This document shows, in pieces, positions 41,492 through 41,815 of a stretch of DNA of 41,815 bases; position 1 is the stretch's first letter, and each line of letters starts with the position of its first letter. The notes beneath the pieces are model-generated. The model saw only the letters and a program-made list of their open reading frames with translations. It was not told the DNA's origin and did not search any database. This stretch comes from Candidatus Flemingiibacterium sp. (lineage in GTDB: Bacteria; Bacillota; Clostridia; Oscillospirales; CAG-272). The stretch spans positions 1-41,815 of the forward strand of contig JAZRAB010000125.1 in the NCBI GenBank assembly GCA_045634345.1, in the 5' to 3' direction. A program made the translations under genes and the position numbers.

Positions 41492-41815
41492 ATGCTTGCA
41501 AGGTTACTCGGGGCGGGTGTTTGAGTCAATCATTCACCGCGGTGCACGAGGATATTCCAAAGTGTATGCCAGAAGAACACTTGCACCTTGAGCCTATCAA
41601 GCTCTCTATTCGCGGGTTCGAATCCCGCCGTGCGTTGAAAAACGTATCGCCAGTGGTTTGGAAGATTTGTCCTTCGGGACGCAAAAAGAACGGTACACGA
41701 AATCGTGTGCGAGAACGTTTTTATTCTGACATTCGTTATCATTCGGCAAAGCGAGAAGTGCTTCGGCACATCTCGAAGAGCAATGCAAAAGCAAGCCTTG
41801 CCTGAGAATGGATAC
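41492..41815 (+). ncRNA. Candidate structured RNA with a tRNA-type T-arm and two UUCG hairpins, truncated by the window end
   Basis: The T-arm GCGGG-TTCGAAT-CCCGC lies at 41612-41628. GTCC-TTCG-GGAC lies at 41669-41680, and CGAGA.GTGC-TTCG-GCAC.TCTCG at 41752-41775. A long-range helix pairs AAAAACGT (41638-41645) with ACGTTTTT (41715-41722). The overlapping track ORFs lack RBSs. Confidence 0.5.

What the first reader, a model, noticed from the sequence alone, without database searches (positions are those of the whole stretch)
41492..41815. Second promoter copy drives an RNA with a perfect T-arm and two cUUCGg hairpins (cut by window end)
Downstream of the vWA protein gene, the sequence carries GCGGG-TTCGAAT-CCCGC, a canonical tRNA T-arm with the GTTCGAATC loop context. 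It is flanked by TGCACG...CGTGCG, which could form an acceptor-like helix 92 nt apart. Two very stable UUCG-tetraloop hairpins and a long-range AAAAACGT/ACGTTTTT helix follow. UUCG loops occur only on the plus-strand reading, which supports the orientation. The two long track ORFs here (41382..41591 and 41482..41805) have no RBS and overlap in different frames.
Basis: seen in the sequence. Interest (0 to 1): 0.7.

Follow-up and report, generated by a model that had tools for sequence, protein, structure and literature searches.

The report
tRNA-mimic RNA of an RNA-repair operon
The region is the first three quarters of a conserved, roughly 400-base structured noncoding RNA carrying a rearranged tRNA look-alike; in related gut bacteria it always sits between a damage-type promoter and the genes for a slipin (Band-7) protein and the RNA ligase RtcB, so it is most likely the RNA partner of an RNA-repair system.

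Summary
The core observation is real. At 41444-41491 there is a 46/48 copy of the promoter/operator that lies downstream of the two WYL regulator genes. Behind it lies a noncoding plus-strand RNA with a T-arm (41612-41628) and two UUCG hairpins, cut by the window end.

Fifteen homologous copies from relatives show a structured RNA of about 400 nt:
- a 5' hairpin;
- a V hairpin;
- a T-arm, a closed acceptor-like hairpin and a D-like arm, in the permuted order known from the bacterial Y RNA YrlA;
- a UUCG-capped mini-arm and variable hairpins;
- a 130-nt 3' domain, of which the window holds only the first 41 positions.

Covariation is strong in both tested modules.

Both are replaced by covarying local hairpins. 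The ORFs are not conserved.

In the 14 homologous loci outside the window the RNA precedes Band-7/slipin and RtcB wherever the contig reaches that far (two short contigs end first). The adjacent DUF2828/vWA protein is Ro60-like by fold.

No Rfam family matches. Burroughs and Aravind (2016) predicted Band-7- and RtcB-linked tRNA-like RNAs. I therefore call this a new variant of a known kind, with function inferred.

The parts
39886..41343 (+). Context: DUF2828 + DUF7788 (vWA) protein gene, a Ro60-like protein.
   Evidence: Pfam DUF7788 7e-42 and DUF2828 3e-36. The AlphaFold model (pLDDT 65) gives Ro60/TROVE structures as its ten best PDB matches, E 2.5e-7 to 2.7e-4, but with a low TM of about 0.27.
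41352..41369 (+). GC-rich hairpin just after the DUF2828 stop codon; terminator-like with a weak T tail.
41444..41491 (+). Second copy of the operon promoter/operator: TTCGCAGCTTTTTTTCCGTG (41446-41465), -35-like GTGAAA (41463-41468) and TG-extended -10 TGGTAAAAT (41483-41491).
   Evidence: 46/48 identical to 38409-38456. Promoter scan. The motif TTCGCANNTTTTTTTCCGTG occurs in 73 of 104 related loci; within the locus orientation (reference gene on +) all 78 matches are on the + strand except the four in pattern-retrieved contigs whose operon lies on the - strand. The transcription start near 41497 is inferred.
41492..41815 (+). 5' part (about 320 nt) of a roughly 400-nt conserved structured RNA, truncated by the window end.
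   Evidence: Homologues at L017 7615-8014, L028, L087-L094, L097, L100-L104. Full-length L017 copy folds at -139.7 kcal/mol, z = -5.6. No Rfam family matches.
41542..41567 (+). 5' hairpin: GUGCAC/GUGUAU enclosing the mini-hairpin GGA-UAU-UCC.
   Evidence: 6/6 pairs in all 15 copies, with compensatory changes (L017 GUGCAU/AUGUAU; L100 and L104 GUAUGC/GCAUAU). The inner stem varies as GGC/GCC and GGU/ACC. Folds at -7 kcal/mol.
41590..41604 (+). V-like hairpin (GAGC-CUAUCAA-GCUC) upstream of the T-arm.
   Evidence: Less conserved; replaced by longer inserts in L088, L097, L100 and L102.
41612..41628 (+). T-arm: 5-bp stem with the loop UUCGAAU.
   Evidence: Stem variants GUGGG/CCCAC, GCAGG/CCUGC, GUAGG/CCUAC and CGGGG/CCCCG occur with the loop kept. 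100% of cells are paired.
41630..41647 (+). Closed acceptor-like hairpin ('AS'): GUGCGUU-GAAA-AACGUAU, 7 bp.
   Evidence: 4 of 7 pairs show double changes, for example GUAUGC/GCAUAU, GAGCCG/CGGCUU and AUAACU/AGUUAU.
41650..41661 (+). D-like arm: CCA-GUGGUU-UGG, with a nearly invariant GG in the loop.
   Evidence: CCU/AGG in L101 and CCU/GGG in L017. 97% of cells are paired.
41669..41680 (+). First cUUCGg hairpin (GUCC-UUCG-GGAC). Its position matches a tetraloop-capped anticodon arm of a permuted tRNA; that reading is an inference.
   Evidence: Variants GCCC-UUGC-GGGC (L028), GCCG-GAAA-CGGC (L097) and GUUC-UUAG-GGAC (L101). Folding.
41686..41722 (+). Composite hairpin: AAGAACG/CGUUUUU enclosing UACACG-AAAU-CGUGUG.
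   Evidence: -13.1 kcal/mol, z = -3.3. The local partner is kept in L094, L097 and L101, where the AS partner is lost.
41752..41775 (+). Second UUCG hairpin, in the variable region.
   Evidence: -13.4 kcal/mol. Relatives have a hairpin of different sequence at this place. Not formally counted.
41774..41815 (+). Start of the 130-nt 3' domain: 5' strand of the long closing helix (41783-41796), internal-loop CCUUGC (41796-41801), 5' strand of the inner helix CUGAGAA (41802-41808), and GGAUAC of the invariant GAUACCG. All 3' partners lie beyond the window.
   Evidence: Model R2 matches at positions 1-41 of 130, 25.5 bits, cut at the 3' side. Domain structure is 88.1% paired against 31-48% in slid controls, and 24 of 33 pairs have double changes.

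Best explanation
41492-41815 is the 5' three quarters of a conserved structured noncoding RNA of about 400 nt. It is transcribed on the plus strand from a duplicated copy of the promoter/operator controlled by the WYL regulators.

Shown:
- The RNA consists of a 5' hairpin, a V hairpin, a tRNA-mimicking module in permuted order (T-arm, closed 7-bp acceptor-like hairpin, 2-nt linker, D-like arm with GG loop), a tetraloop-capped mini-arm, variable hairpins, and a 130-nt 3' domain closed by a helix of about 13 bp.
- In relatives it is followed, without a terminator in the one copy scanned (L017), by genes for a soluble Band-7/SPFH (slipin) protein and the RNA ligase RtcB.

Inferred:
- The RNA is co-transcribed with slipin-rtcB when the tandem WYL regulators respond to nucleic-acid damage.
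- It is then kept, possibly after processing, as a stable RNA whose tRNA-elbow mimic and extra domains serve as cofactor, scaffold or decoy for the repair proteins (slipin, RtcB and, in this genome, the Ro60-like DUF2828 protein).
- This parallels YrlA in the Salmonella rsr-yrlBA-rtcBA operon and the 'Band-7-associated tRNA' predicted by Burroughs and Aravind.
For: Conservation and noncoding nature:
- 14 homologous loci besides the window carry the RNA.
- The ORFs are broken in relatives.
- The full-length L017 copy folds with z = -5.6.

Structure:
- T-AS-D module: 93.9% of cells paired against 27-50% in slid controls; 8 of 15 pairs have double changes.
- 5' hairpin: 6/6 pairs in all 15 copies, with compensatory changes.
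- 3' domain: 88.1% paired against 31-48% in slid controls; 24 of 33 pairs have double changes.

Association:
- Full-score hits of both models (65-88 bits for R1, 66-138 bits for R2) occur only in the window and in the loci of this RNA, 12 of which are seen to carry Band-7 (L092 and L093 end before that point). None of about 75 DUF2828-RtcB loci lacking Band-7 has them.
- The gene order is WYL1-WYL2-promoter-RNA-Band7-RtcB.
- In L017 no terminator lies between the RNA and Band-7.

Promoter:
- 46/48 repeat, sigma-70-like with extended -10, operator motif in 73 of 104 loci.

Analogy:
- The YrlA layout is V, T, AS, 2 nt, D (PMC4201824; bioRxiv 10.1101/312249).
- That preprint reports the Burroughs and Aravind prediction of a Band-7-associated tRNA-like RNA next to RtcB, and that YrlA is occasionally found next to Band-7.
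- The DUF2828 protein is Ro60-like by fold.
- L087 and L090 carry an extra ORF between the RNA and Band-7 while the RNA is unchanged. This fits a discrete RNA module rather than an RBS-coupled leader.
Against: - There is no expression, end-mapping or binding data. Transcription start, 3' end, processing and stability are all inferred.
- The RNA always sits as a leader directly upstream of the first gene, with no terminator found in the one leader scanned, so a purely cis-regulatory role is not excluded.
- The Ro60-binding motif GNCGAAN0-1G of YrlA is not conserved.
- Most copies have no Ro60-like gene nearby.
- No helix formed by the flanks takes the place of the YrlA anticodon/Ro stem.
- The D-like arm is short (3-4 bp, 4-6-nt loop).
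- In the window itself the Band-7 and RtcB genes are not visible because the contig ends.
- The DUF2828 structural model is of modest quality (pLDDT 65, TM about 0.27).
Confidence: 0.55

Rival explanations
1. The RNA is a cis-acting leader (riboregulator) of the slipin-rtcB mRNA. It would sense a ligand or protein, for example a tRNA-binding enzyme, RtcB itself or a damaged-RNA fragment, and control translation or mRNA stability. One possible route is the conserved pyrimidine loop (GCCAAAAG-UUUCUUUCC-GC) of the 3' domain pairing with the Shine-Dalgarno sequence.
For: - The RNA is always the first element after the promoter and directly precedes the first ORF on the same strand.
- In L017 no terminator lies in between.
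- The loop ends in YUCC/CUCC, which can pair with GGAG(G) of the downstream ribosome-binding sites in all copies. This is my reading of the sequences, and it covers only 4-5 nt.
Against: - The linker between the closing helix and the start codon varies in length (about 45-110 nt) and is poorly conserved.
- L087 and L090 have a different ORF inserted after the RNA.
- The RNA is closed on itself by a long covarying helix, which is typical of autonomous RNAs.
- No alternative terminator/antiterminator pair was seen.
- The precedent in rsr-yrlBA-rtcBA is operon-encoded trans-acting RNAs (PMC7790460).
Confidence: 0.25
2. The RNA is a bait or sensor. Its tRNA-like module would be cut by the same ribotoxins that attack tRNAs. 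The fragments (2',3'-cyclic phosphate ends) would feed back on the WYL regulators or serve as RtcB substrates, tuning induction.
For: [quoted passage not shown]
- WYL domains are predicted ligand sensors (cited in PMC7824862).
- The RNA and the regulators share one conserved operator.
Against: - The module has no anticodon loop. A UUCG or GNRA-type tetraloop sits at that place, so anticodon nucleases have no target.
- Salmonella YrlA is not cleaved by the damage-induced nuclease (PMC7790460).
- There is no direct evidence.
Confidence: 0.1
3. The region is a decayed tRNA gene or the tRNA-3'-end scar of an integrated element (an att site), with chance hairpins around it.
For: - A T-arm plus the following 7 nt is what integrases duplicate.
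- The only Rfam hit is a T-arm-sized match to the tmRNA model (17.7 bits).
Against: - The whole 400-nt region is conserved at the same operon position in 14 other loci.
- Covariation is found far outside the T-arm.
- No integrase or repeat partner was seen.
- The 7 nt after the T-arm belong to a covarying hairpin.
Confidence: 0.02
4. The region encodes a small protein (ORF 41482-41805, 107 aa).
For: - The ORF is open in the window, L017 and L087.
- GAGG lies 7 nt upstream of its GTG start.
Against: - The same frame carries stops or frameshifts in L028, L088, L091, L094, L097, L100, L101, L102 and L104.
- No Pfam hit.
- Substitutions follow base-pairing, not codons.
Confidence: 0.01

Closest known systems
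YrlA (bacterial Y RNA-like A; Chen et al. 2014, PMC4201824; structure in Wang et al. 2018, bioRxiv 10.1101/312249)
   Same: - A tRNA mimic in permuted order: optional V hairpin, a 17-nt T stem-loop, a closed acceptor-like hairpin directly after it, a 2-nt linker, then a D stem-loop with GG.
- Encoded inside an RtcB RNA-repair operon and, in this window, just downstream of a Ro60-like (helical repeat + vWA) protein gene on the same strand.
   Different: - About 400 nt instead of 80-130 nt.
- No stem made by the 5' and 3' flanks and no conserved GNCGAAN0-1G Ro-binding motif.
- It carries additional covarying domains (5' hairpin, 130-nt 3' domain).
- Most copies have no Ro60-like gene nearby and instead precede Band-7.
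- The neighbouring protein is DUF2828, not a Pfam TROVE protein.
[quoted passage not shown]
   Same: - A predicted noncoding tRNA-like RNA encoded next to a Band-7/SPFH protein gene and RtcB, proposed as cofactor of the repair system.
- Never validated experimentally.
   Different: - b7a-tRNA is described as strongly resembling an authentic tRNA. Here ARAGORN and the Rfam tRNA model find no cloverleaf in any of the 14 loci searched that carry this RNA.
- The tRNA likeness here is permuted and embedded in a much larger RNA.
- The original paper was not available, so I could not check whether this very element was included.
Salmonella rsr-yrlBA-rtcBA operon under RtcR (Hughes et al. 2020, PMC7790460)
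   Same: - The operon logic matches: a nucleic-acid-sensing regulator, a Ro60-type protein, operon-encoded tRNA-like RNAs and RtcB.
   Different: - The regulators are two tandem WYL-domain proteins with a sigma-70-type promoter, not a sigma-54 CARF activator.
- There is no RtcA.
- A slipin gene is present.
tmRNA and canonical tRNA (Rfam RF00023, RF00005)
   Same: - T-arm sequence and loop (UUCGAAU, with a G-C pair closing the loop).
   Different: - Only the 17-18-nt T-arm matches (17.7 bits against a gathering score of 47).
- No acceptor stem, anticodon arm or tag reading frame.

Membership tests
Canonical tRNA (RF00005) | Cloverleaf with a 7-bp acceptor stem formed by the 5' and 3' ends; detected by ARAGORN or the Rfam tRNA model. 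| tested here: not met
   No call at 41492-41815 or in any homologue. The candidate acceptor pairing drops to 2-4/7 in divergent copies.
tmRNA (RF00023) | A match to the model beyond the T-arm, reaching the gathering score of 47 bits. | tested here: not met
   17.7 bits, model positions 346-363 only.
YrlA | T and D stem-loops with a closed acceptor-like hairpin between them and a V hairpin upstream. | tested here: met
   Structure count on A2: 93.9% paired and 8 of 15 pairs with double changes. The spacing (T directly followed by AS, then 2 nt before D) matches nt 33-49, 50-64 and 67-81 of Salmonella YrlA (bioRxiv 10.1101/312249).
YrlA | Conserved GNCGAAN0-1G motif near the 5' end (the putative Ro60 site). 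| tested here: not met
   An exact motif occurs in only 4 of 15 copies and not at one conserved place.
YrlA | About 80-130 nt, with the flanks of the tRNA-like domain pairing into the anticodon-like/Ro-binding stem. | tested here: not met
   The element spans about 400 nt from promoter to closing helix. Both flanks of the module form their own hairpins.
YrlA | Within 4 kb of, and on the same strand as, a TROVE-domain Ro60 orthologue. | tested here: inconclusive
   In the window, L017 and L028 it lies less than 200 nt downstream of DUF2828/vWA. That protein is Ro60-like by Foldseek but has no Pfam TROVE hit. The other 12 loci show no DUF2828 or TROVE gene in the held sequence.
YrlA | Significant score with the published YrlA covariance model. 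| not testable with these tools
   The supplementary alignments are not held. No YrlA-type family matched in Rfam 15.
b7a-tRNA (Burroughs and Aravind 2016) | Noncoding RNA gene adjacent to Band-7/SPFH and RtcB genes. | tested here: met
   12 of the 14 homologous loci outside the window show promoter-RNA-Band7, and RtcB follows in every one whose contig reaches that far; L092 and L093 end inside or just after the RNA. In the window the genes would lie beyond the end.
b7a-tRNA (Burroughs and Aravind 2016) | 'Strongly resembles an authentic tRNA'. | tested here: not met
   No tRNA call by ARAGORN or Rfam in any of the 14 loci searched that carry this RNA.
Described large or ornate bacterial RNAs and self-cleaving ribozymes in Rfam 15 (such as ROOL, GOLLD, OLE, raiA, hammerhead, twister) | A hit to a curated covariance model. 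| tested here: not met
   cmscan with permissive thresholds on the window end and on five full-length loci found nothing except T-arm-sized tmRNA hits.

The most novel reading that the evidence does not exclude
The element defines an undescribed class of large (about 400 nt) ornate RNA, absent from Rfam. Its permuted tRNA-elbow module and its 130-nt 3' domain would assemble with a soluble SPFH/slipin oligomer and RtcB (and, where present, a Ro60-like DUF2828/vWA protein) into a damage-induced RNA-repair particle. That would be a bacterial counterpart of Ro and vault-type RNPs, switched on by a PafBC-like pair of WYL regulators through a shared 20-bp operator.
Probability: 0.25. Interest if true: 0.8.

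Novelty: new variant of a known kind. Interest (0 to 1): 0.62.

Why it matters
- **Open question.** RtcB repair operons are widespread, but their RNA cofactors are known experimentally only for Ro60/YrlA. The Band-7-linked tRNA-like RNA has remained an untested prediction since 2016.
- **What this adds.** There is now a concrete, covariation-supported model of such an RNA: two calibrated covariance models, 15 copies and defined helices. The tRNA mimic is only one module of a much larger fold. The RNA is tied to slipin-RtcB and to a conserved WYL operator in abundant gut Clostridia.
- **What becomes testable.** Is the RNA stable and processed? Is it modified like tRNA? Which protein binds which domain? 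Do the WYL regulators sense damaged RNA?
- **Annotation.** The region could be proposed as a new RNA family and would stop spurious ORF calls here.

Tried and rejected
- **Extending the contig.** Exact look-up of the window's DUF2828 protein found nothing on record. The window's own sequence beyond 41815 could not be obtained.
- **Viral collections.** Two DNA patterns and the Band-7 protein gave no hits. There is no sign that the element is phage-borne.
- **Literature.** 'DUF2828' retrieved only unrelated plant and tardigrade papers. The Burroughs and Aravind 2016 paper and the YrlA supplementary alignments are not held. A direct comparison with their b7a-tRNA or with the YrlA covariance model was therefore impossible.
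- **Sequence search against PDB.** DUF2828 found nothing meaningful. Only the fold search pointed to Ro60.
- **Shared architecture with 38457-39885.** Rejected. Model R1 gives only T-arm-sized hits there and R2 gives none.
- **Junction helix from the minimum-free-energy fold.** A helix between CACNGCG (upstream of the 5' hairpin) and CGCC-GUG (the D-like region) appeared. I rejected it after reading the sequences: there is no compensatory change, and U-to-C and G-to-A changes break it in L028, L088 and L094, whereas the local D-like stem covaries.
- **Long-range pairing of the 5'-end GCAAGG with the CCUUGC internal loop of the 3' domain.** Left as inconclusive. It is strong in the main clade but no better than shuffles in L017, L088, L091, L100 and L104.
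- **Pairing of GUAUGCC with GGAUAC.** Considered and dropped; L091 contradicts it.
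Full report
**1. What is in the window**

- The last 3.5 kb of the window carries two WYL-domain regulator genes (36148-37470 and 37467-38378).
- They are followed by a terminator-like hairpin and a promoter-like site (38393-38456).
- Next comes a 1.4-kb noncoding array with an aberrant tRNA-like gene and a canonical tRNA-Phe.
- Then comes a DUF2828 + DUF7788 (vWA) protein gene at 39886-41343, followed by the region of the finding.
- The 'second promoter copy' is a 48-nt repeat, 38409-38456 = 41444-41491, 46/48 identical. 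Both copies score as GTGAAA-17-TAAAAT with a TG-extended -10.
- Its core, TTCGCANNTTTTTTTCCGTG, occurs in 73 of the 104 related loci fetched. It always lies on the operon strand between the WYL genes and the downstream RNA region. The repeat is therefore a conserved cis element, most likely promoter plus operator. Transcription itself is inferred.

**2. Relatives**

- The DUF2828 protein has thousands of close homologues in gut Clostridia.
- In 80 genomes the order WYL1-WYL2-noncoding array with odd tRNA-like genes-DUF2828-RtcB is conserved. In most of them RtcB follows DUF2828 within about 60 nt and nothing resembles the finding.
- Two genomes, L017 and L028, do carry it. There the promoter copy and about 440 nt of noncoding DNA are followed by a 373-aa Band-7/SPFH ('slipin') gene and then RtcB.
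- A metagenome scan with a conserved 21-mer, and look-ups of Band-7 homologues, brought twelve more loci. They have the order WYL1-WYL2-promoter-this element-Band7-RtcB and no DUF2828 at all.
- The element therefore travels with the promoter and the slipin-rtcB pair. The window, L017 and L028 are a fusion of the two operon types.
- The window ends inside the element. The covariance model of its 3' domain matches 41774-41815 at model positions 1-41 of 130 and is flagged as cut at the 3' side.

**3. It is RNA, not protein**

- The 107-aa ORF is interrupted by stops or frameshifts in nine of the relatives and has no Pfam match.
- The full-length L017 copy folds at -139.7 kcal/mol against -110.4 for shuffles, z = -5.6.
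- Substitutions follow base-pairing, as detailed below.

**4. Structure**

Fifteen copies were compared.

- **(a) 5' hairpin.** GUGCAC/GUGUAU encloses GGA-UAU-UCC (41542-41567). It is fully paired in all 15 copies, with compensatory changes: L017 GUGCAU/AUGUAU, L100 and L104 GUAUGC/GCAUAU. The inner stem varies as GGC/GCC and GGU/ACC.
- **(b) T-arm.** The stem covaries (GUGGG/CCCAC, GCAGG/CCUGC, GUAGG/CCUAC, CGGGG/CCCCG) while the loop UUCRAMU is kept.
- **(c) Closed hairpin after the T-arm.** A 6-7-bp hairpin of variable sequence follows directly (41630-47).
- **(d) D-like arm.** After two nucleotides comes CCA-GUGGUU-UGG with a nearly invariant GG (41650-61).
- For (b) to (d) together, 93.9% of cells are paired against 27-50% when partners are slid, and 8 of 15 pairs show double changes.
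- **(e) First UUCG hairpin.** It follows the D-like arm. It is kept as a 4-bp stem plus tetraloop with covariation (GCCC-UUGC-GGGC, GCCG-GAAA-CGGC).
- **(f) Middle part.** This part is variable.
- **(g) 3' domain.** This 130-nt domain is closed by a helix of about 13 bp (AUGCAAAAGCA-AGC / GC-UGCUUUUGCAU). It contains an inner helix (CUGAGAA/UUUUCAG), two 3-bp helices and a hairpin with a conserved loop (CAAAAG-UUUCUUUCC). 88.1% of cells are paired against 31-48% in slid controls, and 24 of 33 pairs have double changes.

The caveats of these counts apply. The sequences are related, and the structures were drawn from these same sequences. The slid controls and the many double changes nevertheless make chance unlikely.

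**5.

- The 'acceptor-like helix' TGCACG...CGTGCG is perfect in the window and its closest relatives. It falls to 2-4 of 7 pairs in divergent copies. Each strand is instead part of a covarying local hairpin.
- The apparent complementarity arises because the 5' strand of the closed acceptor-like hairpin resembles the 3' strand of the 5' hairpin.
- The AAAAACGT/ACGTTTTT helix is likewise lost in L094 and L097. A local partner, AAGAACG at 41686-92, is kept.
- No tRNA finder or Rfam model sees a tRNA here or in any homologue. The only Rfam hit is a T-arm-sized match to tmRNA, 17.7 bits against a gathering score of 47.

**6. What it resembles**

- The order is V hairpin, T-arm, closed acceptor-like hairpin, two nucleotides, D-arm. 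This is exactly the layout of the tRNA-like domain of the bacterial Y RNA YrlA. In Salmonella YrlA the T stem-loop is nt 33-49, the acceptor-like hairpin nt 50-64 and the D stem-loop nt 67-81 (PMC4201824; bioRxiv 10.1101/312249).
- YrlA is encoded between rsr (Ro60) and rtcBA in a damage-induced operon (PMC7790460).
- The DUF2828/vWA protein next to the element gives Ro60/TROVE structures as its ten best PDB matches (E 2.5e-7 to 2.7e-4). The model is only of medium quality and the TM-scores are low.
- The same preprint reports that Burroughs and Aravind (2016) predicted a 'Band-7-associated tRNA' next to RtcB. It also reports that YrlA is occasionally found next to Band-7 and b7a-tRNA next to Rsr, and that none of this has been validated.
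- The window looks like such a swapped arrangement. Cloverleaf-type tRNA-like genes sit upstream of the Ro60-like gene, and a YrlA-type permuted module sits upstream of Band-7.

**7. Membership**

- The element meets the YrlA criterion of the T-AS-D(+V) module.
- It fails three others. There is no conserved GNCGAAN0-1G motif. There is no stem formed by the flanks. The size is about 400 nt instead of about 100 nt.
- Most copies also have no Ro60-type neighbour.
- It meets the genomic criterion of b7a-tRNA but not its description as 'strongly resembling an authentic tRNA'.
- I therefore do not file it as YrlA or b7a-tRNA. I call it a new variant of the same kind: a tRNA-mimicking RNA of RtcB repair operons.
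- I could not read the 2016 paper, so prior description of this exact element cannot be excluded.

**8. Mechanism (inferred)**

- The conserved operator overlaps the -35 region. It is shared by the Ro60-like and the slipin operon types, and it is always paired with two tandem WYL proteins.
- By analogy with RtcR sensing tRNA halves (PMC7790460), and with heterodimeric WYL regulators such as PafBC (my own knowledge), the promoter is probably switched on by nucleic-acid damage.
- The RNA is then made together with slipin and RtcB. L017, the one copy scanned, shows no terminator in between.
- Three points favour a discrete, stable RNA that works with the proteins, over a leader that gates the ribosome-binding site:
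  - it closes on itself with a long helix;
  - it survives insertion of an extra ORF in L087 and L090;
  - its distance to the start codon is variable and poorly conserved.
- I give the RNP-cofactor reading about 0.55, the cis-regulatory leader 0.25 and a bait/sensor role 0.1. Remnant-tRNA and coding explanations are effectively excluded.

**9. Verdict**

Its tRNA-cloverleaf details are wrong.
- It is not in Rfam, and it is abundant in gut and rumen Clostridia.
- It gives a concrete handle on a predicted but untested class of repair-associated RNAs.
- Because tRNA-like RNAs next to Ro60, Band-7 and RtcB were already predicted, I rate it as a new variant of a known kind, with interest 0.62.

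Noticed in passing
window 38457-39885: A 1.4-kb noncoding array lies between the first promoter copy and the DUF2828 gene. Repeated units are flanked by complementary arms next to the conserved words ACAGCAA and CCTTGTATATG, for example AAGGCGCAA...TTGCGCCTT at 39434/39501 and AAGGCAAGT...ACTTGCCTT at 39594/39667. An aberrant tRNA-like gene (39516-39586, 35 bits, C at position 33) and a canonical tRNA-Phe(GAA) (39682-39757, 73.5 bits) lie between the units. It is a different RNA system from the finding: models R1 and R2 do not match it beyond the T-arms.
   Followed up: partly
L001-L086, about 50-600 nt upstream of the DUF2828 start: Most relatives carry one to three tRNA-like genes directly upstream of the Ro60-like DUF2828 gene. 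Many have anticodons that bacteria do not normally use (Phe-AAA, Tyr-ATA, Ile-AAT) or irregular anticodon loops. They may be the cognate tRNA-like RNAs of the Ro60-like protein (b7a-tRNA type).
   Followed up: partly
window 39886-41343: The DUF2828 + DUF7788 protein, with no annotated function, gives Ro60/TROVE structures as its ten best PDB fold matches. This suggests DUF2828 is a divergent TROVE-type module. The model is only medium quality (pLDDT 65).
   Followed up: partly
window 38393-38456 and 41444-41491; 73 of 104 loci: The near-palindromic word TTCGCAG-CTTTTTTT-CCGTGAA overlaps the -35 region. It is conserved even between operons whose WYL proteins are only about 45% identical, and also where the WYL genes are divergently oriented, as in L029-L033. 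It is probably the operator of the tandem WYL regulators.
   Followed up: partly
L097 3630-3660: This copy of the RNA has an additional T-arm-like hairpin (GGGG-UUCAACU-CCCC) inserted upstream of the main T-arm.
   Followed up: no
L087 5496-6120 (minus strand) and L090 13276-13915: An extra 206-aa ORF without a significant Pfam match is inserted between the RNA and the Band-7 gene.
   Followed up: no
L100 4001-7935; L104 620-4132: In an AT-rich lineage the Band-7 protein is 637-638 aa long. RtcB is followed by an RlaP (PF10127) nucleotidyltransferase, another repair-associated enzyme.
   Followed up: no
L094 6630-7486: A barnase-type ribonuclease gene with its Barstar inhibitor lies immediately downstream of the slipin-RtcB operon on the opposite strand. 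This places a ribotoxin next to an RNA-repair system.
   Followed up: no
L001 2675-3890: An AAA_33 kinase-like gene and a Thg1-family (tRNA-His guanylyltransferase-like) gene precede the WYL regulators in the closest long relative.
   Followed up: no
L080 4538-5774; L083 789-5892: Very large tRNA gene arrays (14 and 26 genes) flank RtcB and DUF2828 in two relatives.
   Followed up: no
L050 5933-5955; L044 5932-5954: A T-arm with the same 5' flank as in the finding (UUUUUCGCRGGUUCGAAUCCYGC) lies about 45 nt before the DUF2828 start codon, without the acceptor-like and D-like parts.
   Followed up: no
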